Below are positions 1,006 through 12,337 of a DNA stretch of 64,000 bases, in pieces. Position 1 is the stretch's first letter; each line of letters starts with the position of its first letter. Location of the stretch: NCBI GenBank assembly GCA_045576315.1, contig JAZNGE010000003.1, positions 3,778-67,777 on the forward strand, read 5' to 3'. The translations under genes and the position numbers were made by a program. The notes under the pieces are model-generated. The model was not told where the DNA came from and ran no database searches. It worked only from the letters and a program-made list of their open reading frames with translations. Source of the DNA: Eubacteriales bacterium (GTDB lineage: Bacteria; Bacillota; Clostridia; Oscillospirales; CAG-272).

Positions 1006-1281
1006 AATAAATGTGACAAACAAGCAAGGTATTGTGTTTTAATTACTAAACAACAAATTAAAAGCCTGCGACGCACTAAGTACGCACAGACTTGAACGTA
1101 ACAGATCAGCGGCGGGCTACAAATCGTAGTCTGTCGTTTTTCTTTCCTTTATCATAATACACGCAAAGCAAAAATCCCCACTCTATTCTATGAGTGAGGA
1201 TAAAAGGATATAACTACACGGTCATCTTCCGCTACCCCTTGGACGAGCCGTGTCTATCTATCAAATCAAGGAGGTAAATTT

Positions 1282-1356
1282 ATGCGTTGGGTGAACAACG
1301 TTTCGCTGCTCGTTATGAGTAGCGACTATGATTTACGAACTGACAGCTCTACATAA
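1282..1356 (+). CDS. possible 24-aa leader peptide
   Basis: AAGGAGGT RBS then ATG; MRWVNNVSLLVMSSDYDLRTDSST. Confidence 0.3.
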   Translation: MRWVNNVSLLVMSSDYDLRTDSST

Positions 1357-1378
1357 AAAACTGAATAGAATACGCCAC

Positions 1379-1432
1379 AAGGCACTTATTAGACGATGCA
1401 ACGGACAAGCATCTGACAATAAGTGCCTTTTG
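1379..1432 (+). terminator. hairpin/attenuator upstream of the sigma-like gene
   Basis: 12-bp IR aaggcacttatt/aataagtgcctt followed by T's. Confidence 0.5.
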
Positions 1433-1532
1433 CTTTGCCCGCGCGAAAAATGTAATAATTTGCCTATTCGTGCGCCACCTGAAAGAATTTTGAAATTTAA
1501 TGTCAAATTTTGAAATCAATCAGGAGGCTAAA

Positions 1533-1973
1533 ATGAAGAAATTAAGCACGAATATAACAAACGAAAACGGCGAAACGAAAAAAATTACGGTCTTTGTAGA
1601 GGACGAAACTGCGGCGGCGCTCGCTCATTGTGACGAAGAAATCCGCCACCTTTATATACTTGAAGAACACGAGGCGCAAAACCTTACGCGCAAGGAAACC
1701 AGACGGCATATTTCATACGAAAGTATCACCGAAAAGGGCTTGGATTTTGTTTCCCCGGAAGAAAGTCCGTCGGACAGGCTCATACGCTCGGAGGAAGAAA
1801 AACGGTTACATAACGCTATGGCGAGCTTAACGGACAAGCAGTATAAAATTCTTTGGCTCGTAGCTGTGGACGGGCTTTCCTTTCACGAGGTAGGACGTAT
1901 TTTAGGCTTGAATTGGGATACCGTCAGAGAGCATTATCGGGCAGCTGTGAAAAAAGTCCAAAAAAAATTTTGA
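1533..1973 (+). CDS. sigma-70 region 4 (ECF-like) regulator of ICE/IME type
   Basis: AGGAGG RBS; C-terminal LTDKQ..DGLSFHEVGRILGL..TVREH HTH. Confidence 0.85.
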   Translation: MKKLSTNITNENGETKKITVFVEDETAAALAHCDEEIRHLYILEEHEAQNLTRKETRRHISYESITEKGLDFVSPEESPSDRLIRSEEEKRLHNAMASLTDKQYKILWLVAVDGLSFHEVGRILGLNWDTVREHYRAAVKKVQKKF

Positions 1974-2053
1974 AAAATACCCCCTCAAAACGCCATTCCC
2001 GTGGCTTATAGGTGAAGGCGCACCCGTCTTACACTTTTTCAGGAGGTACGAAG

Positions 2054-2368
2054 ATGTTACCACTCAACAAAATTCGAGAAGATTTGAAGGAGATCCGCTA
2101 TTACTACGCACGCAAGGAGATTTTCGATGCGGCTATCGGCGGTATCGGGCTTAACAAGGTTTTTGATACGGTGAAGAAGTATAACACCGCCGTTCAGAAC
2201 GCACCGCCGAGGCTCTATGACCTCTATATCTGCCTGTACGTGAAGAACTACACGCAGGAGGGCTTGTCAATCGAGCTTGGATATACCCCCGAATATATCC
2301 AGATGCAACACAAAAAGCTCCTGCTTTTCCTTCAATCTTACTTTAAGAGCGAGGAGGAAAGAAAATGA
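2054..2368 (+). CDS. ArpU/RinA-like or sigma-r4-like HTH regulator
   Basis: AGGAGG RBS; LYVKNYTQEGLSIELGYTPEYIQMQHKKLL HTH-like C-terminus. Confidence 0.6.
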   Translation: MLPLNKIREDLKEIRYYYARKEIFDAAIGGIGLNKVFDTVKKYNTAVQNAPPRLYDLYICLYVKNYTQEGLSIELGYTPEYIQMQHKKLLLFLQSYFKSEEERK

Positions 2369-2610
2369 AGCAGACGCCGGATTTTATGCAGAACGCTACG
2401 AACGTTTACCGTACTCCCCACTTTATCGTCAGGCAAAGGCTTTCTATCCTTTGCAGCGAGGAAGAAAACAATGCAGTTATAAGCCGAGATACATTCTACA
2501 AAAGAACACCGGCACGTAACGCAGAGTACGAGGAAATTTTCAAAAAGCGTGAGCAGATAGACGGAAAAAGGCTTCCCTCGTCGGGCTACATTCGAGAGTA
2601 CCGAGAGTAA
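2365..2610 (+). CDS. hypothetical protein
   Basis: ATGA overlap with the previous gene; RBS present. Confidence 0.7.
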   Translation: MKQTPDFMQNATNVYRTPHFIVRQRLSILCSEEENNAVISRDTFYKRTPARNAEYEEIFKKREQIDGKRLPSSGYIREYRE

Positions 2611-2923
2611 AAAAGACGGGTGCGGCTTCAAAAACACTTTGGTTTCATTTGGGGTAAAGTTTGGGTAAACAGACAAGAATCTGCGTTTTAGTTTGGATTT
2701 TCTTGGGGTTCTGTTTCTGGTTTTTGCCCGACAAATACCCTACAATGAAAGCGTAACCGACAGCTACCGATTTACGATTAAGGCGCTTGGAGCTTGCAAG
2801 CTAAGGTGGCCACCTTCCATAGCACAATCGCCGGGAACAGAGTTTCAAGGAGCGTTACGGTTACGAAAACAACTGAATAGCCTACGGGCAAACAAAATCT
2901 ACAAATCACAGGAGGATTTTTTA

Positions 2924-3208
2924 ATGGCTAAAAAGGCAGCCACCGCCGAGGGCGGAAACAAGTACAATCAGCGCAGATGGGCTATCCCCTCTAAGCGTGC
3001 AAAGAACTACGCATCCGAGCGTAAAGCAAAGGTGCATCAGCGCGGACCGAAGGAAGGTAAAGAGCTGACCGATTACGAGGCAGGTATCCGTTCCGGCTAC
3101 TTGCAGGCACAGACCGACCACGCCGGGCTGTATAAGTACAAAAAGGCACTTTCCGAGGGTAAATCCAAGGCAGAGGCACGCGAAATTTCGCAGAAGAAAT
3201 CTAAGTAA
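2924..3208 (+). CDS. small Lys/Arg-rich protein (possible DNA-binding)
   Basis: AGGAGG RBS before ATG 2924; strongly basic 94-aa product. Confidence 0.75.
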   Translation: MAKKAATAEGGNKYNQRRWAIPSKRAKNYASERKAKVHQRGPKEGKELTDYEAGIRSGYLQAQTDHAGLYKYKKALSEGKSKAEAREISQKKSK

Positions 3209-3231
3209 TTTAACAGGAGGTATCAGAATTT

Positions 3232-3597
3232 ATGGCTAAAACGAACGAAACTAACGCAGGTAAGGCAATCTTTGTAGAGCGCGAAACCTTTGAAATGGAA
3301 GGCAAAACCTACTATTCCTACTTCATTAAAGGACAGATCCGCGGCAGAGATGTAAAGGTCGCAATTACGCCCCCGGACAACGGCGGCTTCGTCGTTCTGG
3401 ATATCGTGTTCGGCAACGCTATGGCGGCAGAGCTTGTAGTGAAGCCCTACGAGATCAAGGACGAAAAGACCAAGAAGGTCGTATCCGGCAATACCTTCGC
3501 TGTCGTTTCCTATGACGAAAACGGCGAGATGTACGAGTGTGCCGTGAAGCCCTACCGTCAGTCCGATAAGGCTCTCTTGAATATGCTCCTTAAATAA
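3232..3597 (+). CDS. beta-rich protein, candidate ssDNA-binding protein
   Basis: AGGAGG RBS; alternating beta-strand pattern with aromatic residues; function inferred from context. Confidence 0.55.
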   Translation: MAKTNETNAGKAIFVERETFEMEGKTYYSYFIKGQIRGRDVKVAITPPDNGGFVVLDIVFGNAMAAELVVKPYEIKDEKTKKVVSGNTFAVVSYDENGEMYECAVKPYRQSDKALLNMLLK

Positions 3598-3698
3598 GGC
3601 GCATAAGGCAAAAAAACAATAACGTTTCTGCGGCTTATGTACGGCAAATAAGTCGTGCGTAGGTCGCAGTTTTCATTACAACAAAAGGAGGTTTCTTT

Positions 3699-3998
3699 AT
3701 GGAAGCAACAGCAAAAAAGTCAGGCTTCAAGGAGTCTGTAAAGCAGACCGGTCAGAAAGCTAAGGCATACGCCGGAAAGAAAGTCGATCAGGTGAAAACC
3801 TACGGCAAGAACTACAAATCCGACATTGTAAAGGCTTATGATATCGGCTACGCAAGAGGCTGGGACGACGCTTACAACGTCCCTAAACGCTTTGGTGCAA
3901 AAATCGCAGCGTCCTACGGCTACAAGAAAGGTATCCGTGACCGTCGCCGCGCAGATAAGTACACAAAGCAGTACAGCAAAATCGGTAAGCAAAACTAA
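3699..3998 (+). CDS. small basic helical protein
   Basis: AGGAGG RBS; Lys-rich; AYDIGYARG/SYGYKKG motifs. Confidence 0.75.
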   Translation: MEATAKKSGFKESVKQTGQKAKAYAGKKVDQVKTYGKNYKSDIVKAYDIGYARGWDDAYNVPKRFGAKIAASYGYKKGIRDRRRADKYTKQYSKIGKQN

Positions 3999-4019
3999 AA
4001 ATTCAGGAGGATTTGTTAT

Positions 4020-5036
4020 ATGACAAAAACAAGAAACAAGATTATTTCCTTCGTTCTTGCTCTCGCTACGGTGTTCACTCTTTGCTTTACACTCGTAGCC
4101 TGCACGGACGATAACACCCCCGACACTTCGGGCGAAACCGCACAGACCGAGCAGGTACACACTCTTTCTGCAAGTGATTTCAAGACGGAGTTTGTCAATA
4201 CCGCAAGCGTTAAGCTGATGGCTGCTTCTCCTGCGGTTATGACAGCAGCTACCGGGGTTATCACTCAGAAGATCACCGCAACCGTTCTCCCGGCAACCGC
4301 AACAAATAAGCAGGTAGATTGGACTGTGGCTTGGGCGGATTCGAGCAATACCACAAACGTGGCTAACTACGTTACCGTAGCTCCCGATTCTGACGGTAGT
4401 ACCTCGGCAACCGTAACCTGCAAGGCAGCCTTCTCCGGCAACATTGTCATTACGGCTACCACTCGTCAGAACGGCTACAAGGCTGACTGCATTGTTAGCT
4501 TCGTCGGCGTTCCCGCAAACATCGAGATCATCACCAACCTTACCCCCGCAAGCGACGGTTATCACGTAGCTGTCGGCAACACTTACACCTTCGGTACGGA
4601 GCTTTCCAACCCCTTTGGCGAGGTCGGCAACGCATACAAGACTCTTGAGGTTTCCGTTCAGGGTGTAGGTCAGATTAAGGTAGCTTCTAAGGAGGTTTAC
4701 GTTTCAAGCGGCAATACAAAGTGGTATGACGACCTTGCTACTGTTATCGACCTTAATACGATTGCAAGCAAGTTTATTGACGCTTCTATCGCAACCGACG
4801 GCACGATTACCGTAAACGTCAAGAAGTCTATCGAAAGCTATTACGCAAGTCTGGAGCGTATCGACGGCGGCAGAACACAGTATTATACGGACTGTTTCAG
4901 AGATTACGTAACCAACTGCTACTTTAAGATTGTGCTTACAGAGCCCAAGAGTGGTATCAGCACTTCCTTCAACCTCGTGCTTGATGAAAATGCAGTTACG
5001 GGCGTATCTCTTGCATCAACTGAAATGTTCTTTTAA
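4020..5036 (+). CDS. lipoprotein with Big_2-like Ig domain and C-terminal free strand (pilin-like)
   Basis: lipobox LVAC; ITATVLPATATNKQVDW Big_2 motif; ends VTGVSLASTEMFF. Confidence 0.75.
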   Translation: MTKTRNKIISFVLALATVFTLCFTLVACTDDNTPDTSGETAQTEQVHTLSASDFKTEFVNTASVKLMAASPAVMTAATGVITQKITATVLPATATNKQVDWTVAWADSSNTTNVANYVTVAPDSDGSTSATVTCKAAFSGNIVITATTRQNGYKADCIVSFVGVPANIEIITNLTPASDGYHVAVGNTYTFGTELSNPFGEVGNAYKTLEVSVQGVGQIKVASKEVYVSSGNTKWYDDLATVIDLNTIASKFIDASIATDGTITVNVKKSIESYYASLERIDGGRTQYYTDCFRDYVTNCYFKIVLTEPKSGISTSFNLVLDENAVTGVSLASTEMFF

Positions 5037-5048
5037 GGAGGTGCTTAT

Positions 5049-5624
5049 ATGACAGGTGCAAAGGTAGGTAAAATTATTGCCTATATTCTTGTCGTTCTGG
5101 CTTTGGTATCGGCTATCGGCTTTATTGCCTACTTTACCGGCGGCTTTACAAGCGGATTTAAGACCTTCTACGTCGAGGTTGACGGCAAGCAGATTATGAC
5201 GAGCGCAAACGACTATAAAATTCCTGCCGGCGAATCTATGACTGTTGACGTCAAATATACGATGTCGGATGAAGCAAACGGCTATTCTGTTAAGGTCGTT
5301 CCCAACAAGCTCGCAGGCAAGGATTTCGATTTCTCGCTTGACGGTGAGGTATATTCCTATCAGGCTGAAAAGGATCTTACCGCAGGCTTTGAAATTGAGT
5401 ACGGCGACACTTCATTTACTATCAAGCCCAAAGGCACGATTACGGATATTCTGAGGGCTGTCTATCCCGGCAGCGTAGTAGAAGATTGCCGCGATTTTGC
5501 CTACGACAATATGTTTACTCTTATTGTCACGTCCCACGATGGCGAAAGTAACGTAAAGGTCAATTTCACCGTTTCCGAGGACACCGAGGGTATCACCATT
5601 ACCCCCGATCACATCTATTTCTAA
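5049..5624 (+). CDS. N-terminally anchored beta protein with C-terminal free strand
   Basis: N-terminal TM helix; ends TEGITITPDHIYF. Confidence 0.75.
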   Translation: MTGAKVGKIIAYILVVLALVSAIGFIAYFTGGFTSGFKTFYVEVDGKQIMTSANDYKIPAGESMTVDVKYTMSDEANGYSVKVVPNKLAGKDFDFSLDGEVYSYQAEKDLTAGFEIEYGDTSFTIKPKGTITDILRAVYPGSVVEDCRDFAYDNMFTLIVTSHDGESNVKVNFTVSEDTEGITITPDHIYF

Positions 5625-5645
5625 ATTTTAAGGAGGATTTCATTT

Positions 5646-6743
5646 ATGAATAACGAATTTAACCAGCACAAAAAGAGTGATTTTATCAAGTGGATAATCA
5701 CTTTCACCGCACTTATTCTGCTTTCGATTTCGGTTATCGCGCTTGCGGCTAACGTATTCGGCGGAGTCAATAATGACACCACAACTGAAACCGAGCAGAC
5801 AACCGAAAACGACCAGCCCACAACCGCCGAGGGTATGAACACCGTTAAGGTTGTAAACAGCGACCTTATGATGCTTTCTGCTATGGCATACTCCAGCGAG
5901 CCTACCGTAGCAGGAGCAAAGGCAACTACGGGCGTCAAGGTAACTGCTACCGTTCTTCCCGAAGGTACAAATCAAAAGCTGAATTGGGATATTTCCTACG
6001 TTGATCCCAACAACGAATGGGCAGAAGGCGTACAGGCTGATGCTTCTGATTTTGTTTACATTGAGTCCGAGAACGAGGATAACACCGTTATTTACGTGAA
6101 GGCTTATTCCGCTTTCGGCGCTCAGGTCAAAATCACCGCAACCTCTGCCGTAAATCCCGATGTATCCGCTTATATTCTGGTTGATTATGCTGCGCGCTTA
6201 GATGCCGAGCAGTATCTTGAAATAGGCGGCGAAGGATTTATTACTTCTCTTGACAGTTCTGATTGCATTAGCTACGCAGGCGGTATCAATCACGATGGCG
6301 GAGATATTACGGATTATATCTACGCTCCTATCGAGTTTTTGCCCTCGTTTAATTACGGCTCTATTACGCCTTCCTGCTACGCTGAATTTTACGTAACTCT
6401 TTCCCCGGAATTTCTTGCGGCTCTCCAAGCCGAAGGATTTACCAACGCAACCGGTGAAATGGTATGGGTTGGCGAGGACGTTATTACTCCCGCTATGCTC
6501 ATAAACGCTATGGTCGGTGAGAAGATCATTACCGACAGTACAGCTTGTGTAGAGGTAGCCGTTGCTACTGCGTTCAATAACGCGGCGGCTTCTGTGGGAG
6601 ATTCCTTAGCGTTCACTATCAATGCTATGGCTTCAACGGATTACGAGGCTGCACAGTTCGATTTTGATTTCCACTTCGATCCCGATGCTATCGTAAACTA
6701 CGTAGAGTCGATAGAGTTTGACGTTCAGAACATCGTTCTTTAA
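5646..6743 (+). CDS. N-anchored Big_2-like protein, paralog of 4020-5036
   Basis: VTATVLPEGTNQKLNW and AFGAQVKITAT match the paralog; ends VESIEFDVQNIVL. Confidence 0.75.
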   Translation: MNNEFNQHKKSDFIKWIITFTALILLSISVIALAANVFGGVNNDTTTETEQTTENDQPTTAEGMNTVKVVNSDLMMLSAMAYSSEPTVAGAKATTGVKVTATVLPEGTNQKLNWDISYVDPNNEWAEGVQADASDFVYIESENEDNTVIYVKAYSAFGAQVKITATSAVNPDVSAYILVDYAARLDAEQYLEIGGEGFITSLDSSDCISYAGGINHDGGDITDYIYAPIEFLPSFNYGSITPSCYAEFYVTLSPEFLAALQAEGFTNATGEMVWVGEDVITPAMLINAMVGEKIITDSTACVEVAVATAFNNAAASVGDSLAFTINAMASTDYEAAQFDFDFHFDPDAIVNYVESIEFDVQNIVL

Positions 6744-6761
6744 TAACAAGGAGGTGATTAT

Positions 6762-8807
6762 TTGACTTATGCAAGAAGAAATAGGCTTCTTCTCTGCATA
6801 GTCGCTATGGTGATGGTGCTGTCTATGGTGTTTTTCCCCATATTCAGCACTGTCGCTTATGCGGCAGAAAAAGAAGTCAATTACGACAGTACAAACGTAC
6901 TTGATGACCTCAATTCCGGGGCGGTGAACGGACAGCCCTTTGACATTACGGATTTCCCGTTCAACGAAAGCAAGGATATACAGGTAATAAACTTCGTTGA
7001 ATACTGCTATTCCTATAAGGCGAATTTGCGGGATAACTACGGGCTTTACGTGTATATCTATAACCCCAAGGGCTTAAACCTCTCGACGAGTAATAAGCAG
7101 AACAAAATCCAGATGGCAGTCAGCTACGACGCCGAGGGCAACCCAAGCGATTATGAAAAGTTTTCGCTTGAATTTTGTTCCAAAACCGAAAGCGGAGATT
7201 ATAAAAATCTGTTTTACAAGTTCAAGGTTATTGACCGTGAGGTAAACGGCACGACCTTCTCTGACCGTGTAAACAGTAACGCTCGCCGCTATGACGTTTC
7301 GGGCGTAGAGCTGACAACCTATGGCGCATCCTCGGCAACCGAGTACGGTGTGTGCGGAACGTACATATTTACGGGATTTGCCGAAGGATACGGCCCGGAC
7401 GAAAATGCGAAAAGCACGCTTACCTGTGACGTGGAATATCTCGAAACGATAGAGCTTTCCGTAAAGCATACCTTCTACCGTTCCAAGACTTCCCCCCTCG
7501 GTGCAGGACACCAAAATCAGCTTGACACCGTGTATTTCTCCGTTCCGAAACGCTTTTTAGATACCTACGGAAGATTGCAACGTATCAAAGCGGAGTGGTA
7601 CGAGTACAAGACGAAAGAAATTCTTGTCACGAGCCATACCGACTTTTACAATGCGGCTAAGGACTATATCGGCGTAGAGCTTGGCGACGAGCCTAACGAT
7701 TTCGGTCAGTACGAATACGTTGAGGATATCGGGTACAGCTTAGGCATCGGTGCAGGCAAAGCGGGAGATATGTACGTAGCTCAATGGGGCTGGAATCTCG
7801 GCACAGGCTATTTCCATATTCCGACAAATGCGCTCTACTATATGTTCCTCGTTGACAATATCGAGGAATACGATCCCTATGCTGAAACCGTCACCATCGG
7901 AGGCGTGCAAAGCAACGATCTGTACGAGTGGATAAAGAATTACAACAAAAGCTATACTTCTGGCAGGCTTCCCATCAAGGACGGCAAGATCAGCGCCGAC
8001 CTCTTTGAAAGTGATATCGACGCCAGCCGAAAAATGAATAACGAAAACGGCGTTATCAAGAACGGATACAGCTATTACGACTTTGACGCCGACGTGGATT
8101 TACAAACGCTGAAAAGCTGGTCTGACAGCGATCCGAGCTTTTGGGATAATTGGATAAACTTCGGTCTTGGTGCAGCCTTCACGGGCGGGCCCGACGAGCA
8201 AACCAAAACGGCAGCTCCGATACAGATACTTAAAGCGTCCGACCTCACCGGCACGAACACCGAAATAGCGGAAAGACTGCTCGTGAACGTGGCAGACGTT
8301 GACAGTATCAAAGCCGAGTACAACAACGCCGTTACCGTCAACGGTATAGACGATGAAGAAAAGGTTGTCGTGCTGTTCCGTTTCGCAACGAGTGATTACT
8401 ATTCCGAGGCTGTTGACATCATCGAGATTGACGGCGGATTTCTTTGGACGGACAAGCACACCGAAGGACAGGCGTATATAGCACAGGAAAGCGTATTTTT
8501 TGACTTTGATATCATTCAGCTTACCTTCAACAAGGACGGTGATTACACCGTTATTCCCGTTGTTTCAAGCCCGATTGATATAGTCAATGACATTACCCCT
8601 CCCGTCAATATGCCGGGCGGTCTTGAATGGTGGCAAATCGTACTTGCCATTATTATGGTCGTTCTTCTCGTCGTGCTGCTTTGGCCGGTGCTACCATACA
8701 TCGGTCAGGGTATCTGGTGGGTTATCTGCCTGCCCGTCAAAGCGTTCAAGGCTATTAAAAACGCTATCAAGCGAAAGAAAGACGAAAACTATTACAAGGA
8801 GGAATAA
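6762..8807 (+). CDS. large secreted protein with C-terminal TM anchor (pIII-like topology)
   Basis: signal peptide ending AYA; C-terminal hydrophobic helix and basic tail; lies upstream of the Zot-like gene. Confidence 0.75.
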   Translation: MTYARRNRLLLCIVAMVMVLSMVFFPIFSTVAYAAEKEVNYDSTNVLDDLNSGAVNGQPFDITDFPFNESKDIQVINFVEYCYSYKANLRDNYGLYVYIYNPKGLNLSTSNKQNKIQMAVSYDAEGNPSDYEKFSLEFCSKTESGDYKNLFYKFKVIDREVNGTTFSDRVNSNARRYDVSGVELTTYGASSATEYGVCGTYIFTGFAEGYGPDENAKSTLTCDVEYLETIELSVKHTFYRSKTSPLGAGHQNQLDTVYFSVPKRFLDTYGRLQRIKAEWYEYKTKEILVTSHTDFYNAAKDYIGVELGDEPNDFGQYEYVEDIGYSLGIGAGKAGDMYVAQWGWNLGTGYFHIPTNALYYMFLVDNIEEYDPYAETVTIGGVQSNDLYEWIKNYNKSYTSGRLPIKDGKISADLFESDIDASRKMNNENGVIKNGYSYYDFDADVDLQTLKSWSDSDPSFWDNWINFGLGAAFTGGPDEQTKTAAPIQILKASDLTGTNTEIAERLLVNVADVDSIKAEYNNAVTVNGIDDEEKVVVLFRFATSDYYSEAVDIIEIDGGFLWTDKHTEGQAYIAQESVFFDFDIIQLTFNKDGDYTVIPVVSSPIDIVNDITPPVNMPGGLEWWQIVLAIIMVVLLVVLLWPVLPYIGQGIWWVICLPVKAFKAIKNAIKRKKDENYYKEE

Positions 8808-8810
8808 TTT

Positions 8811-8948
8811 TTGAAAACGGTAAAAAGGATTATTGCTGTACTCCTTCTTATCGTTACTGTGGCTCTGGTTGGCTATCTTGTATTCACGGGTAGCCAACTA
8901 TCCCTAAACGATACGGGAGGTGTATATGAAGAAATTACGAGTATTTAA
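8811..8948 (+). CDS. 45-aa single-TM protein (not in ORF track)
   Basis: AGGAGG 8797-8802, TTG start; MKTVKRIIAVLLLIVTVALVGYLVFTGSQLSLNDTGGVYEEITSI. Confidence 0.7.
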   Translation: MKTVKRIIAVLLLIVTVALVGYLVFTGSQLSLNDTGGVYEEITSI

Positions 8949-11034
8949 TATCTCGCTTACGGTCATATTATCGCTCTTGTTTATATTTTTAGGTGTGTTC
9001 CATTTTAACACCTCGTATGTTCGCTTTGCCGAGGCTTTGGGCGATTTATGGAACTCCGTCAAATTCTACTTTTTAGAGATTTTCGGGGTTGTTCATATCA
9101 CGCCGCCTACGGTGGAGAAATATTCCGAGGTTATGAAATGGGATATTTTTTTACCCGAAAACTTTGAGAGCTTCAAGACAGAAGCGGCAGCATACTTTGA
9201 TTTGCTGTTCAGTAAAAGCAACCTTTCGGCATACGGGGATTTGGTTTTCGGCAAGCTGGAGATTGTTGCAAAGGCTTCGGCTATGGTGCTACCGTGTATC
9301 CTCTTACTCGTGCTTGCGATAAAGAAAATCTACGGCGCGGGCAACAACGATCACGGCAAGGATACTATACCCCTGCGAGCGTTCAAGTGGCTGTCAAGCA
9401 AAACCTATCAGCCCATAAAAAGATGGGTGCTATCGTATATCGCCTTTATGAAAGAATACGGCTACATACCGATTTTATGGGCGATTCTGTGGGCGTTCCA
9501 TCTTAACCTTGCATCAATTATTATTGCTTTTTTCGCGTACTATTTCTATTTTGCGGTGTCCTTCCGCTTCGGCACGATGTACGTGCAGGTCTGCAAGCTC
9601 TTTATAGATTTGCAGGTCGTACTAAGGGTGTTCCCGTGGTGGTGGCTCGTTACATTCGGCTGGCTTCTGTTCAACCGTTTCAGACAAAGAATAGCACAGG
9701 CACACCTAAGACATCTTGAAGCCCGGAACTGCGGATTTATCAACGAGCTGCCTATCGTGTCAATGACTGTCGGCTCGATGGGAAAGAAGAAAACAACCAT
9801 TATTACGGATATGGCTCTCTCCCAAGAGGTTATGTTCCGTCAGAAAGCCTTTGAGCTTATCCGCAAAAACGATATGAAATTTCCGTATTTCCCGTGGATC
9901 AGCTTTGAAATGGAGCTTAGGCGGTGTATGGAATACGGTACGGTGTTCAATCTCGCAACCGTTAAGGAATGGGTGAAAAAGAAGCGGCTACGATACGAAA
10001 AGAACGAAAACGCCGATTTACAGCTATACGGATATGACTGCGAGCGCTACGGCTTTACCTATGATGACGGGCTTCGTATATGGGGGCTGTTTGACGTTCT
10101 CGAAAGCTATGCGCAGCTCTATTTTATCTACGTCATAGAAAGCAGCCTTATCGTTGCGAACTACTCCATACGAGAGGACAACCGCTGTATTGACGCGGGC
10201 AACTTTCCTATGTGGGCGACAGACTTTTTCCCGGAAATCACAGTCGAAGGCGGCAGGCACGCTCACATTCTCGATTTTGACGTCCTCAGACTCGGTAAGA
10301 AGGTCTTGGAGAACAATCCGAACGCCGGGAGCTTTGAATTTGGCGTAGTCGTTATATCAGAGGTCGGCAAGGAGCGCGGCAACGTACTCGACCATAAGGA
10401 GATCAAAAAGCACACCGAGGAAACCAACCAGAAAAACGACCTTTTCAACTCGTGGCTGAAAATGTGCAGGCACTCTGCAACGGTAGATAATTTCCCGTTT
10501 ATCAAGGTATTTACGGACGAGCAACGCCCGGAGAGCTGGGGAGCTGACGCGCGGGATCTGTGCGACATCGTACATATCGTATCTTCGGGCAAGATGCGGC
10601 TTGCTATGCCGTTCTATACCATAGAAGAAATGCTTACGGAATGGGCTTTTGACGGCTTTATCTCTATGTATTACGATTTTCGTCACAGACGCGGCGACAA
10701 TACGCTGCTCGTGCATATTCTGAAAACCGTTACGTCGTGGCTCTACAAGCGAAACGCCAAGATATATAACCGCTTCGGATATTCGGTATCGGCTATCGAA
10801 AAGGAGCGCGGCACGATGAACGGCAAGCCTGAAAAGAAGAAATACTACGTTATGAATAAGAAAATATACGCAAGGCGTTTTTCTACCGACTGTTTCAGCG
10901 ATTACTTTAACGAAATGGCAAGAAATTCAAAGGTAGGCTTGAATGACTATATGGAATATGCCACCGAAAAGGCAACCGTGGAAGAACTGAAATTACAGAA
11001 CAGCTATTTTATTAACGCGCTTTACGGAAAATAA
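8926..11034 (+). CDS. polytopic membrane Zot/pI-like (FtsK-HerA superfamily) ATPase
   Basis: several N-terminal TMs; Walker A variant GSMGKKKTT, Walker B VVVISE, MCRH, VFTDEQ..ARDLCD. Confidence 0.75.
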   Translation: MKKLRVFNISLTVILSLLFIFLGVFHFNTSYVRFAEALGDLWNSVKFYFLEIFGVVHITPPTVEKYSEVMKWDIFLPENFESFKTEAAAYFDLLFSKSNLSAYGDLVFGKLEIVAKASAMVLPCILLLVLAIKKIYGAGNNDHGKDTIPLRAFKWLSSKTYQPIKRWVLSYIAFMKEYGYIPILWAILWAFHLNLASIIIAFFAYYFYFAVSFRFGTMYVQVCKLFIDLQVVLRVFPWWWLVTFGWLLFNRFRQRIAQAHLRHLEARNCGFINELPIVSMTVGSMGKKKTTIITDMALSQEVMFRQKAFELIRKNDMKFPYFPWISFEMELRRCMEYGTVFNLATVKEWVKKKRLRYEKNENADLQLYGYDCERYGFTYDDGLRIWGLFDVLESYAQLYFIYVIESSLIVANYSIREDNRCIDAGNFPMWATDFFPEITVEGGRHAHILDFDVLRLGKKVLENNPNAGSFEFGVVVISEVGKERGNVLDHKEIKKHTEETNQKNDLFNSWLKMCRHSATVDNFPFIKVFTDEQRPESWGADARDLCDIVHIVSSGKMRLAMPFYTIEEMLTEWAFDGFISMYYDFRHRRGDNTLLVHILKTVTSWLYKRNAKIYNRFGYSVSAIEKERGTMNGKPEKKKYYVMNKKIYARRFSTDCFSDYFNEMARNSKVGLNDYMEYATEKATVEELKLQNSYFINALYGK

Positions 11035-11061
11035 ATCTTTCAGAAGGAGGTATTACAACTT

Positions 11062-12126
11062 ATGCCGTATGGAGAAACAAAGGTTTACTTCGACGGCAGC
11101 CATTATATTGCAATCCCTCATACTACGCGCCCGTCACGAAAGCGACCTGTGCGTATCGAGGAAGAAATCACGGTCTATGAAGATAGCCCGGCAAGCGAAG
11201 AAACTACGGATACGGCAACGGACGAAGAAAAAGCCGAGGTCGTACCCGTAGAGCTTGCAGAAGAAGCTGTCGTCAATAACATAGATACGCCCGAAAACCA
11301 AGAAGCTCCGGTAGAAGAAAAAGCGGTTGAGGAAAAGAAAAGCGGCGGGCGTAAAACTACCAGAAAGGAACTGTTTGAAAAGCTATATAAGGAAACGATG
11401 AATAAGCGCAGAGCCGAGCGAAAAAAGCTCATTATAAAGGCTATGCGACCATACTTTCAGACCGAAGAAAAAACCGAGCTTTACGTAAAAGCCAATTTAG
11501 AGAGAAAGCAACGAAACTTAATATGTCGGCGTATCCGTATGTGCCGTAAGGCGAACTTACAGAACTTCAATTATTTTTGCACGTTCACCTACGACGATAA
11601 GAAGCACACCGAAGAATCCTTCCGTAAGAAACTCAAAGGTCGGCTGTCCTCGTTTGCCAAGCGCCGAGGGTGGAAATACATCGGTGTATGGGAACGCTCC
11701 CCGAAAACGAGCCGCCTGCATTTTCACGGCATTTTTCATATACCCGAAGGCACGCTTCCAGGGATACTTCTCACGCATAGGGATTACAGCACGACGGCAC
11801 ACAAAATGCAAACGAGAAATCAATCCACGTATTTTAATGACGAGTTTGGAAGGTCGGATTTTGAGCCTATCAATGATAACAGGCGCATGGGCGAGGCTAT
11901 GGCGTATCTTATGAAATACCTTGAAAAGACGGGCGAAAAGATAATATACTCCAAGGGCTTGCCTCAATATTTTATCTCGGATATCCTCGATGATGATATT
12001 GTCTGCACCGTAGGGCAAGAAGAAAAGAAGTTCTTATTGTTCGATGACTTTAACTGCTTTGACGAGGGCTGCTATGTGGGCGAAGTAAGCCCCGCCGTTA
12101 TTGCAGAATTACGCAAATCCAACTGA
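11062..12126 (+). CDS. HUH rolling-circle replication initiator
   Basis: motif I FCTFTY, motif II LHFHGIF, motif III YLMKYLEK. Confidence 0.9.
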   Translation: MPYGETKVYFDGSHYIAIPHTTRPSRKRPVRIEEEITVYEDSPASEETTDTATDEEKAEVVPVELAEEAVVNNIDTPENQEAPVEEKAVEEKKSGGRKTTRKELFEKLYKETMNKRRAERKKLIIKAMRPYFQTEEKTELYVKANLERKQRNLICRRIRMCRKANLQNFNYFCTFTYDDKKHTEESFRKKLKGRLSSFAKRRGWKYIGVWERSPKTSRLHFHGIFHIPEGTLPGILLTHRDYSTTAHKMQTRNQSTYFNDEFGRSDFEPINDNRRMGEAMAYLMKYLEKTGEKIIYSKGLPQYFISDILDDDIVCTVGQEEKKFLLFDDFNCFDEGCYVGEVSPAVIAELRKSN

Positions 12127-12171
12127 CGCTTATACGGCGTACAAACAAGGCTTAAAAAACGAAAAATATTC

Positions 12172-12244
12172 GCCCGACGGGAATAATGCGAAGGATCGCC
12201 AAGCGGCTCAGCGGCGACCTCGCATCCGTCGGGCTTTCGTTTTT
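12172..12244. repeat. large hairpin downstream of Rep (terminator or packaging/sso signal)
   Basis: gcccgacgg...ccgtcgggc IR with inner stems, followed by T's. Confidence 0.5.
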
Positions 12245-12270
12245 CCGAGTTTAGTCGGTTTTGTCAGGTT

Positions 12271-12337
12271 GCAGGGCGTGTGCTTGTCTGGCGGAGCGCA
12301 GCGACGCCACTTGTATCAAGACAAGCACACGCCCTGC
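12271..12337. other. putative double-strand origin (Rep nick-site cruciform)
   Basis: perfect 19-bp IR gcagggcgtgtgcttgtct/agacaagcacacgccctgc enclosing ggcg..cgcc and cttgtatcaag. Confidence 0.7.

What the first reader, a model, noticed from the sequence alone, without database searches (positions are those of the whole stretch)
4020..6743. Three consecutive anchored proteins all end in an orphan Ig 'A-strand': donor-strand polymerisation?
Seen: the C-termini VTGVSLASTEMFF, TEGITITPDHIYF and VESIEFDVQNIVL resemble the first strand of Big_2 domains (VTGVSLDKTSLTL-type). The Big_2-like domains of two of these proteins begin at the second strand (ITATVLP/VTATVLP), after a TM or lipid anchor and a flexible Thr-rich linker. 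Established: type V pili use lipoprotein pilins that polymerise by C-terminal strand exchange. Inference: these subunits chain head-to-tail into a filament or spike, an architecture I do not know from inoviruses.
Basis: partly seen in the sequence, partly recalled or inferred. Interest (0 to 1): 0.8.

Follow-up and report, generated by a model that had tools for sequence, protein, structure and literature searches.

The report
Orphan Ig-strand tails on anchored proteins
Three neighbouring membrane-anchored, antibody-fold proteins of a small mobile element in a gut bacterium each end in a conserved short strand that looks like the start of a further domain that is not there; it probably clips them to partner proteins, but this is not yet shown.

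Summary
ORFs A (4020-5036), B (5049-5624) and C (5646-6743) are N-terminally anchored all-beta proteins. Each ends in a 14-residue tail that matches positions 1-14 (first two strands) of the Pfam Big_2 domain, in register.

The tail is a family hallmark. 111 of 125 A/B/C-type ORFs in 48 related loci end in Phe, against 24 of 450 background ORFs. So do 119 of 139 full-length representatives of a family of 2,862 clusters.

The tail is not confidently docked in cis in the monomer models. In B, tail position -4 tracks which gene follows: Val/Ala in 32 of 35 unique tails when D follows, polar in 9 of 9 when a C-type gene is inserted. This is suggestive but not significant on the tree.

Best reading (about 0.4): a trans-acting strand connector between co-encoded surface proteins. 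Head-to-tail polymerisation is untested; the one complex job gave no verdict. The genes lie in an ~11-kb Rep-encoding, inovirus-like integrated element with no described relatives.

The parts
4020..5036 (+). ORF A, 338 aa: lipoprotein (lipobox LVAC), disordered Thr/Glu-rich linker, Big_2-type Ig domain (about 55-162), second all-beta region (163-321), 14-aa tail
4992..5033 (+). Tail of A (AVTGVSLASTEMFF), equal to Big_2 profile positions 1-14; terminal Phe invariant in alignment A1
5049..5624 (+). ORF B, 191 aa: N-terminal membrane helix, ectodomain starting directly after it, 14-aa tail; the most conserved and most widespread of the three
5580..5621 (+). Tail of B (DTEGITITPDHIYF); position -4 (His here) covaries with the presence of a gene between B and D
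5646..6743 (+). ORF C, 365 aa: conserved cytoplasmic HKKSD..KW motif, membrane helix, linker, Ig domain homologous to that of A, mixed alpha/beta C-terminal half, 14-aa tail
6699..6740 (+). Tail of C (YVESIEFDVQNIVL)
6762..8807 (+). ORF D, 681 aa: N-terminal signal-like segment and C-terminal membrane helix with basic end, no tail; always present, and its start overlaps B's stop in most loci. Candidate acceptor.
8811..8948 (+). 45-aa single-helix protein, conserved between D and E (short structural-protein candidate)
8920..11034 (+). ORF E, 704 aa: several N-terminal hydrophobic segments and a Walker-A motif (GSMGKKKT); possible 'atypical' morphogenesis ATPase; no family match
11062..12126 (+). 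Replication initiator, PF23343 REP_ORF2-G2P
   Evidence: E 1e-10, 42.2 bits against a cut-off of 27.8
1500..3998 (+). Conserved upstream genes of the element: sigma-70 region-4 protein (1500-1973), 2012-2368, basic protein (conserved part 2921-3208), 3232-3597, basic protein 3699-3998
1056..12333 (.). Approximate extent of the integrated element (about 11.3 kb), taken from where contigs of other samples stop matching
   Evidence: loose ends cluster at 1056-1096 and 12275-12333; synteny

Best explanation
A, B and C are ectodomain proteins held on the outer face of the cytoplasmic membrane by an N-terminal lipid (A) or membrane helix (B, C). They are encoded by an ~11-kb Rep-carrying, inovirus-like integrated element of a gut Clostridia bacterium.

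Each ends in a 14-residue stub that corresponds to the A and A' strands of a Big_2 Ig domain whose remaining strands are missing. The stub stops exactly at a nearly invariant Phe.

Shown:
- the stub, its register against Big_2, and its conservation;
- the all-beta Ig-like build of A and C;
- the conserved gene order.

Inferred: the proteins' own Ig domains are complete and the stub is not placed in cis. The stub therefore most likely acts in trans. It would lie as an added or exchanged strand on the beta-sandwich of a co-encoded partner (a paralog, C or D), so that the partner's domain sits like the next domain of a tandem Ig rod. This would tie the anchored proteins into a hetero-oligomeric surface assembly, such as the tip, spike or coat of the element's particle. 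Which protein accepts the stub, and whether the result is a closed complex or an open polymer, is not known.
For: Register and conservation:
- The tails match Big_2 positions 1-14 in register in 23, 20 and 18 of 24 genuine domains.
- 111 of 125 A/B/C-type ORFs in 48 loci end in Phe, against 24 of 450 background ORFs of at least 150 aa.
- 119 of 139 representatives of at least 300 aa end in Phe.
- In the tail matrix Val -13 has frequency 0.84, Val -10 0.78, Ile/Met/Leu -3 0.90 and Phe -1 0.93.

The tail is always terminal. Variants with an extra N-terminal domain (P0374) or a duplicated second domain (P0413) still end in it, and none of the four longer forms inspected continues into a full domain.

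AF2 monomers: the domains are confident (171 of 338 residues of A at pLDDT 90 or more), while the tail is coil or low-confidence.

B's tail position -4 (unique 12-aa tails):
- Val or Ala in 32 of 35 when D follows directly;
- polar (His, Gln, Thr, Glu) in 9 of 9 when a C-type gene lies between B and D.
Sister loci L021 and L032 differ in both traits, and L004, which lacks C, has D 93% identical to the window's D.

B's stop overlaps D's start (gap -3) in most loci.

Precedents: strand complementation builds surface fibres in Bacillota, with a Phe as the last donor residue filling a deep pocket (preprint 10.64898/2026.10.17.759780, abstract and sections 7-8). C-terminal donor strands build type V pili (PMC13655056, passages).
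Against: - No acceptor was found: the modelled Ig domains of A and C already have their N-terminal strands.
- No interface has been modelled or measured.
- The covariation is not significant once relatedness is allowed for: 4 independent pairs on starred branches, about 3 the same way, 0 opposite, about 1 with no difference, sign test p 0.25. Three unique tails followed by D are polar at -4 (L025, L032, L026-type).
- C's own tail does not take on Val at -4, so a simple chain in gene order is not supported.
- A 3-residue linker after the last strand would also allow a cis hairpin. The AF2 alignments were shallow (36 and 24 rows), so the absence of cis docking is weak evidence.
- A divergent clade (L043-L046) has A-type proteins without the tail.
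- All subunits keep membrane anchors and no protease is recognisable in the element. This argues against a fibre that grows away from the membrane.
Confidence: 0.4

Rival explanations
1. Homopolymer or ordered heteropolymer by donor-strand exchange. The tail of one subunit replaces or supplies the A strand of the first Ig domain of the next subunit, giving a filament or lattice, in the manner of type V pili.
For: - Same facts as for the best explanation.
- A is a lipoprotein with a C-terminal strand, like type V pilins.
- The region before the B strand of Ig1 carries an insertion and has lower confidence than the rest of the domain: block pLDDT 75, 89, 74 against 86-95.
- The number of A/C-type paralogs per locus varies from 1 to 4, as expected for interchangeable chain members.
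- The best fold matches include S-layer lattice proteins SbsC and Sap at Z 8.8-9.5. This is barely above the usual noise of 7-8.
Against: - Ig1 has its own N-terminal strands in the models.
- The tail matrix finds no match to the protein's own N-terminal strands: best non-tail score mean -2.1 against -0.6 (sd 3.4) for shuffled bodies.
- No protease gene is recognisable.
- Every subunit stays anchored.
- Type V donor strands are self-docked in the monomer, and here they are not.
Confidence: 0.17
2. Cis element. The tail is an extra edge strand or a flexible cap of the protein's own last domain, conserved for folding or stability and with no partner.
For: - The 3-residue linker allows a hairpin with the last strand.
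- C's tail is modelled as two short strands (357-359, 362-364).
- The only couplings in the covariance analysis that involve the tail are within the tail (weak data).
Against: - Low confidence and no pairing for A's tail.
- The same motif follows unrelated last domains: the all-beta end of A, the alpha/beta end of C, and B. hhalign relates A and C only over A 1-163 and C 1-183 and does not relate B to either.
- Exact termination at Phe and the in-register match to a different domain's first strands are not expected of a cis cap.
- B's tail covaries with gene content.
Confidence: 0.2
3. Recognition tag. The hydrophobic-x-Phe carboxy-terminus is read by a host or element factor that binds C-terminal peptides by strand addition, for example a PDZ-type protease or a chaperone, for quality control, processing or export.
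For: - Phe is near-invariant at the very C-terminus (0.93).
- Extensions are almost absent.
- From established knowledge, recalled and not taken from a call: PDZ domains of envelope proteases bind such ends.
Against: - A tag would need only 3-4 residues, yet 14 residues are conserved in Big_2 register.
- No such factor was identified.
- An outer-membrane beta-signal is unlikely: no Omp85 match in the window's genome, which is 82.55% complete, and the proteins are N-terminally anchored.
Confidence: 0.12
4. Ligand for the target cell. The exposed strand binds a receptor or a wall component of the next host.
For: Ig-like phage proteins often serve adhesion: the BFVD matches are phage BIG2, tail-fibre and minor capsid proteins.
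Against: A receptor-binding element would be expected to vary. Here the tail is among the most conserved parts, across paralogs only 25-45% identical.
Confidence: 0.06

Closest known systems
Type V pili of Bacteroidia (FimA, Mfa1)
   Same: Subunits are exported as lipoproteins (as A is) and are built of beta-sandwich domains. C-terminal donor strands are essential for joining subunits. Tip pilins lack donor strands; compare the tail-less A-type proteins of loci L043-L046. Source: passages of PMC13655056.
   Different: - Type V pilins have two transthyretin-like domains, self-dock the donor strands in the monomer, need Rgp protease cleavage to free a groove, and sit on an outer membrane.
- Here the fold is Big_2/Ig-like and the tail is not docked in the monomer model.
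- No protease gene is recognisable, B and C have helix anchors, and the host genome shows no Omp85.
Chaperone-guided donor-strand exchange pili of Bacillota (WxL/Elr) and chaperone-usher pili
   Same: Non-covalent fibres of Ig-like subunits in monoderm Firmicutes; a ~14-residue amphipathic donor strand whose final Phe fills a deep pocket; a membrane-anchored accessory protein. Source: preprint 10.64898/2026.10.17.759780, abstract and sections 7-8.
   Different: - The donor strand there is N-terminal and the acceptor is an incomplete WxL Ig fold.
- A DUF916/DUF3324 chaperone and a sortase anchor are required there.
- Here the strand is C-terminal, no Pfam family was found for A, B, C or D, and the genes belong to a mobile element.
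Tandem Big_2 arrays of bacterial adhesins and phage Ig-like decoration domains (invasin, intimin, LigA/B, lambda gpV C-terminal domain, T5 pb6)
   Same: The first domain of A superposes on a Big_2 domain (7quz, Z 8.4, rmsd 1.8 A over 74 residues, 30% identity). The second region matches gpV-C, pb6 and intimin/invasin domains at Z 7-8.6. The tail equals the start of such a domain.
   Different: In those proteins every A strand is followed by the rest of its domain. A conserved terminal stub without a domain is not a feature I found described: searches (listings only for most papers).
Inoviruses (Tubulavirales), including 'atypical' inovirus-like elements
   Same: - Rep of the ORF2/G2P family.
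- A short single-helix protein.
- A large membrane protein with a signal-like start and a C-terminal anchor, as g3p has (g3p's layout is recalled, not from a call).
- An NTPase-like protein with N-terminal membrane segments. Roux et al. 2019 report that arrangement for 30% of inovirus-like species (PMC6813254, passages).
   Different: - E has no match to Zot/pI or to any Pfam or PDB family.
- No small major-coat gene lies upstream of D.
- One to four large anchored Ig-like proteins are not known from inoviruses.
- No relative was found in IMG/VR, and only one in 50,697 phage records.

Membership tests
Pfam Big_2 (PF02368) | Score above the curated cut-off of 22.8 bits | tested here: inconclusive
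   The window's A scores 13.5 bits, E 0.071, on residues 70-136 against profile positions 8-70. Homologs P0048, P0063 and P0074 score 24.9-28.4 bits on profile positions 17-72. C and B have no hit.
Pfam Big_2 (PF02368) | Big_2-type beta-sandwich fold | tested here: met
   A residues 62-162 against 7quz Big_2-CBM56: Z 8.4, rmsd 1.8 A, 74 aligned residues, 30% identity. For C the Ig matches on 73-182 reach only Z 6-7, within the noise range.
Type V pilins | Lipoprotein precursor with an N-terminal anchor strand | tested here: inconclusive
   A has a lipobox, as do many paralogs. B and C have helix anchors instead. An anchor-strand role for A 55-59 cannot be tested.
Type V pilins | Two transthyretin-like beta-sandwich domains | tested here: inconclusive
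   No type V pilin appears among the 50 rows shown. The rows are Ig, Big_2 and S-layer domains.
Type V pilins | C-terminal donor strands self-docked in the monomer and released after protease cleavage | tested here: not met
   The tail is not docked in the AF2 monomer of A. No protease family was found in the 12 element proteins scanned.
Type V pilins | Outer-membrane surface of Bacteroidia | tested here: not met
   Relatives lie in Clostridia MAGs. No Omp85 was found in the window's genome, which is 82.55% complete, so absence is not proven.
Donor-strand-exchange pilins (chaperone-usher, WxL) | Incomplete Ig fold with an open hydrophobic groove | tested here: inconclusive
   The AF2 models of A and C show N-terminal strands in Ig1. 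Coordinates could not be inspected for a groove. B and D were not folded.
Donor-strand-exchange pilins (chaperone-usher, WxL) | N-terminal donor strand and a dedicated chaperone | tested here: not met
   The candidate strand is C-terminal. No chaperone family (DUF916, PapD-like) was hit in any element protein.
Inovirus-like elements (Tubulavirales) | pI/Zot-type morphogenesis ATPase | tested here: inconclusive
   E has a Walker-A motif and N-terminal membrane segments, the 'atypical' layout of Roux 2019. It has no Pfam or PDB match, either alone or as a 19-sequence profile.
Inovirus-like elements (Tubulavirales) | Rolling-circle Rep of the ORF2/G2P family | tested here: met
   PF23343, E 1e-10, 42.2 bits against a cut-off of 27.8.

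The most novel reading that the evidence does not exclude
A mobile-element-encoded strand-complementation system. The N-anchored Ig-like subunits are joined through a C-terminal Big_2 A/A' stub into an open chain or lattice on the membrane or particle surface of an inovirus-like element of monoderm gut bacteria. B (possibly a coat-forming subunit) and D would form the invariant core, and one to four interchangeable A/C-type subunits would be the variable outer members. This would be the first donor-strand-type assembly in a virus-like element, and a way to swap surface modules without changing the joint.
Probability: 0.2. Interest if true: 0.85.

Novelty: new variant of a known kind. Interest (0 to 1): 0.6.

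Why it matters
Strand complementation is the joining principle of several bacterial and archaeal surface fibres. Until recently it was thought to be rare in monoderm bacteria.

A 14-residue universal 'plug' shared by thousands of otherwise divergent Ig-like proteins would show how a small element of gut Clostridia assembles and diversifies its surface. The family holds 2,862 clusters at 50% identity. The plug would also make a compact natural tag for non-covalent protein joining.

The element itself has no described relatives: Rep, an unclassifiable NTPase, and no match in IMG/VR. It may be a distinct group of chronic, non-lytic elements in animal and human gut bacteria.

Tried and rejected
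- Complex prediction. A 51-338, C 62-365 and B 29-191 (B as partner), with alignments. No verdict: ipSAE 0.00, 0.31, 0.27 against a mark of 0.32, and the controls were not run. This is evidence neither way.
- Mean-field covariance analysis on 318 A-family sequences, Meff 228. The top pairs were dominated by gapped N-terminal columns. Only intra-tail pairs involved the tail. Inconclusive.
- The idea that the tail mimics the protein's own N-terminal A/A' strands. The tail matrix finds nothing in the body above shuffled controls. Rejected at sequence level.
- Outer-membrane beta-signal. Rejected: N-terminal anchors, and no Omp85 in the 82.55%-complete genome.
- Sortase or other C-terminal sorting signals. 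Rejected from the sequence: no LPXTG and no terminal membrane helix.
- hhalign of B against A and against C: probabilities 21.8 and 7.2. My by-eye alignment of the last strands plus tail of A and B is therefore not claimed as homology.
- Scans and searches that found nothing:
  - IMG/VR scan with the B profile.
  - B was found in 0 of 400 other genomes of the same order at E <= 1e-10, one genome per species, a sample.
  - Pfam and PDB profile searches for D and E.
  - ESM Atlas for B and D: no named relatives and no models.
  - Pfam scan of the 30-aa ends of A, B and C and of a 40-aa end of P0074.
- Reads. Only contigs were available. No joint indicating a circle was seen. RNA-library contigs gave little or no cover over 4200-7000, which shows nothing.
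- Repeats: no flanking direct repeats found.
- Supplementary files of the papers cited were not opened. Those of Roux et al. 2019 might list related Clostridia elements.
Full report
**What is at the coordinates.** The window holds three consecutive + strand ORFs:
- A: 4020-5036, 338 aa.
- B: 5049-5624, 191 aa.
- C: 5646-6743, 365 aa.

A starts with a signal sequence that ends in a lipobox (LVAC). B and C each have one N-terminal hydrophobic helix. C's helix is preceded by a conserved cytoplasmic motif, HKKSD..KW. A and C carry Thr/Glu-rich linkers that AlphaFold2 leaves disordered: pLDDT below 50 for A 25-50 and C 29-61. The last 14 residues are AVTGVSLASTEMFF, DTEGITITPDHIYF and YVESIEFDVQNIVL.

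None of the three has a Pfam family at E up to 0.1 beyond chance-level rows. PHROGs gives only a weak match of A 51-147 to a major tail protein family, E 0.0015.

**Is the tail real and more than chance?** The three proteins have many relatives: 295 (A), 27 (C) and 623 (B) at E <= 0.001 in the word-indexed search. All are unnamed or 'hypothetical', from Clostridia MAGs and gut metagenomes.

In the alignments the tail is among the best-conserved parts:
- A family: V326 and F338 invariant, T327 and V329 nearly so.
- B family: G181, I189 and F191 nearly invariant.
- C family: I363 nearly invariant.

In 48 related loci from species-representative genomes, 111 of 125 A/B/C-type ORFs end in Phe (A 57 of 64, B 46 of 48, C 8 of 13). 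Only 24 of 450 other ORFs of at least 150 aa in the same loci do. A loose strand pattern is met by 109 of 125 against 6 of 450.

An exhaustive profile search found 2,862 representative clusters at E <= 0.001 and 298 at <= 1e-30. Of the 139 listed representatives of at least 300 aa, 119 end in Phe.

The tail consensus is VVTGVSLSSSEITF. Frequencies are Val -13 0.84, Val -10 0.78, Ile/Met/Leu -3 0.90 and Phe -1 0.93.

**Does the tail resemble the first Big_2 strand?** I tested this directly. PF02368 was searched in the window's genome and in 40 relatives. Twenty-four matches that start at profile positions 1-6 and lie in held loci were translated. A 25th contained a stop and was dropped.

| Tail matrix | Best of 14 offsets is exactly profile position 1 | Score above 99th percentile of in-domain background |
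|---|---|---|
| A | 23 of 24 | 22 of 24 (my count from the printed values) |
| B | 20 of 24 | 16 of 24 |
| C | 18 of 24 | 15 of 24 |

For the A matrix the mean score was 0.4, against a background mean of -25 (sd 8, 99th percentile -6.5). So the tail is, in register, the A and A' strands of a Big_2 domain, cut off where the chain would turn into strand B.

At the level of the Pfam match this holds: profile positions 17-72 in homologs that pass the cut-off, and positions 8-70 at E 0.071 in the window's A. The AF2 models say otherwise:
- A (mean pLDDT 81.5) has strands 55-59, 64-68 and 73-75 before the ITATVLP strand 80-89.
- C (mean pLDDT 77.2) has strands 64-70 and 75-83 before 95-103.

Structural alignments to solved Ig domains start at A 61/62 and C 73. 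hhalign aligns this N-terminal stretch between the A and C families (probability 99.7%, E 5.5e-26, A 1-163 with C 1-183). L66 of A is invariant. So there is no evident vacant A-strand slot.

**Folds.** A is a chain of Ig-like sandwiches:
- Residues 62-162 superpose on a Big_2 domain: 7quz, Z 8.4, rmsd 1.8 A, 74 residues, 30% identity.
- Residues 163-323 match S-layer domains of SbsC and Sap (Z 8.8-9.5), T5 pb6 (Z 8.6) and lambda gpV-C (Z 8.0).

Foldseek gives generic tandem-Ig rows and phage BIG2 proteins. These Z values are near the stated noise level of 7-8, so they name a fold class and not a function. For C only the first domain is recognisable (Z up to 7.1); its second half has helices.

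**Cis or trans?** In the A model the last 17 residues are coil, with block pLDDT 71 then 57. In C the tail forms two 3-residue strands at pLDDT 55-59.

The tail is always terminal. A form with an extra N-terminal domain (P0374) and one with a duplicated second domain (P0413) still end in it, and none of the four longer proteins inspected continues into a full domain.

The same tail follows last domains that are not detectably related to one another. A and C are related only over their first ~170 residues, and B is related to neither. This fits a module with its own function better than an edge strand of one particular domain.

**A comparative hint of a partner.** The gene order is conserved across 48 genome loci and 65 metagenome loci: sigma-like gene, three or four small genes, one to four A/C-type genes, B, sometimes a C-type gene, D (about 680 aa, signal-like start, C-terminal helix, no tail), a 45-aa helix protein, E (about 705 aa), Rep. 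B's stop overlaps D's start in most loci.

Among unique 12-residue B tails:
- When D follows B directly, position -4 is Val or Ala in 32 of 35. The three exceptions are L025 (Glu), L032 (Lys) and L026-type (Ser).
- When a C-type gene sits between B and D, position -4 is polar in 9 of 9 (His, Gln, Thr, Glu).

All 6 His-type loci, the window included, have C downstream. L004 has D 93% identical to the window's D, lacks C, and has Val. L032, sister of L021, lacks C and has lost the Asp-His.

On a tree of 87 B bodies built without the tail, the gene-content state changes at least 6 times and the -4 state 7 times. Only 4 independent pairs lie on well-supported branches: about 3 go the same way, none the other way, about 1 shows no difference, and the sign test gives p 0.25.

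This is suggestive, not significant. It says that the surroundings of B's tail depend on which co-encoded protein is present, which is what a trans interface predicts. It does not fit a simple chain in gene order, because C's own tail has Asn, Gly or Ser at -4, not Val.

**Context.** Contigs from other samples stop matching at 1056-1096 and at 12275-12333, so the element is about 11.3 kb.
- Its Rep belongs to PF23343, ORF2/G2P (E 1e-10).
- E has a Walker-A motif after several membrane segments. Roux et al. 2019 report this 'atypical' layout for 30% of inovirus-like species (passages). E matches no Pfam or PDB family even as a profile.
- D is likewise unmatched.
- The B profile finds nothing in IMG/VR.
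- Of 50,697 phage records only one, an unannotated 57-kb 'Bacteriophage sp.' record, holds E (63% identity) and Rep (52%).
- B was found in 0 of 400 other sampled genomes of the order.

So 'inovirus' is a reasonable label for the kind of element but is not shown. The host genome (2.1 Mb, 82.55% complete) has no Omp85 match, consistent with a single membrane.

**Comparison with known systems.**
- Type V pili share the lipoprotein subunit and the essential C-terminal donor strand. They differ in fold, in self-docked donor strands, in the protease step and in the cell envelope (passages of PMC13655056).
- The recently reported WxL/Elr pilus shows that strand exchange does build fibres in Bacillota, with a 14-residue donor strand ending in a pocket-filling Phe and a membrane-anchored chaperone. 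There the strand is N-terminal and the acceptor is an incomplete WxL fold (preprint 10.64898/2026.10.17.759780, abstract and sections 7-8).
- TasA fibres and archaeal threads were seen only as search listings and abstract starts.
- I found no description of a terminal Big_2 A/A' stub, or of these elements, in the searches.

The mechanism I consider most likely (0.4) is a trans-acting strand connector that ties the anchored Ig-like proteins to co-encoded partners. An inference follows from the Big_2 register and the 3-residue linker: the partner's sandwich would sit like the next domain of a tandem rod. Open-ended polymerisation as in type V pili remains possible (about 0.17) but has no specific support, and its stated premise (missing A strands) is contradicted. 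Cis packing (0.2) and a C-terminal recognition tag (0.12) are the main rivals.

Noticed in passing
window 5646-5760, and the N-termini of many A-type paralogs in L005-L041: A strongly conserved cytoplasmic motif (HKKSD..KW) precedes the membrane helix of C and of many A-type paralogs, while other paralogs carry a lipobox instead. The two anchor types alternate within one family. The motif suggests contact with something on the inner side, such as DNA, a nucleoprotein or E.
   Followed up: partly
window 5621-5646 against related loci (e.g. L005, L007-L013): In most loci B's stop overlaps D's start by 4 nt (gap -3), which suggests translational coupling. In the window and its close relatives a C gene is inserted between them.
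   Followed up: yes
L043-L046, L048: A divergent clade has A-type proteins of 314-315 aa that end straight after the last strand with no tail. It also has 390-aa lipoproteins and a second B-like protein in which a tail-like motif is followed by a few extra residues. These may be end members of an assembly.
   Followed up: no
window 8920-11034: E (704 aa) has a multi-helix N-terminus followed by a Walker-A motif, with very high conservation (70% mean column identity over 19 loci). It has no Pfam or PDB relative even as a profile.
   Followed up: partly
window 12271-12337: A perfect 19-nt inverted repeat with a 29-nt loop lies just after Rep, at the place where contigs from other samples diverge. 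It is a candidate origin, terminator or element end.
   Followed up: no
own genome, contig C44:3300-9214 (L049, L051, L055): A second Rep (57% identical) lies next to an open frame of 1,786 aa with Big_2 domains. A third, more distant Rep (39%) is on C40. These are possibly related elements with a different surface-protein set.
   Followed up: no
window 1500-1973: The element carries its own sigma-70 region-4 protein (E 3.2e-7; also phrog_11138, E 1.6e-13), conserved in many of the related loci.
   Followed up: no
window 2921-3208 and 3699-3998: Two small, very basic proteins without hydrophobic segments are conserved upstream of A. They are possible DNA-binding or packaging proteins, which would be unusual for an inovirus.
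   Followed up: no
L027 and L040 (one 524-kb contig); L018 and L019; L008, L023 and L028: Several genomes carry two or three copies or variants of the element.
   Followed up: no
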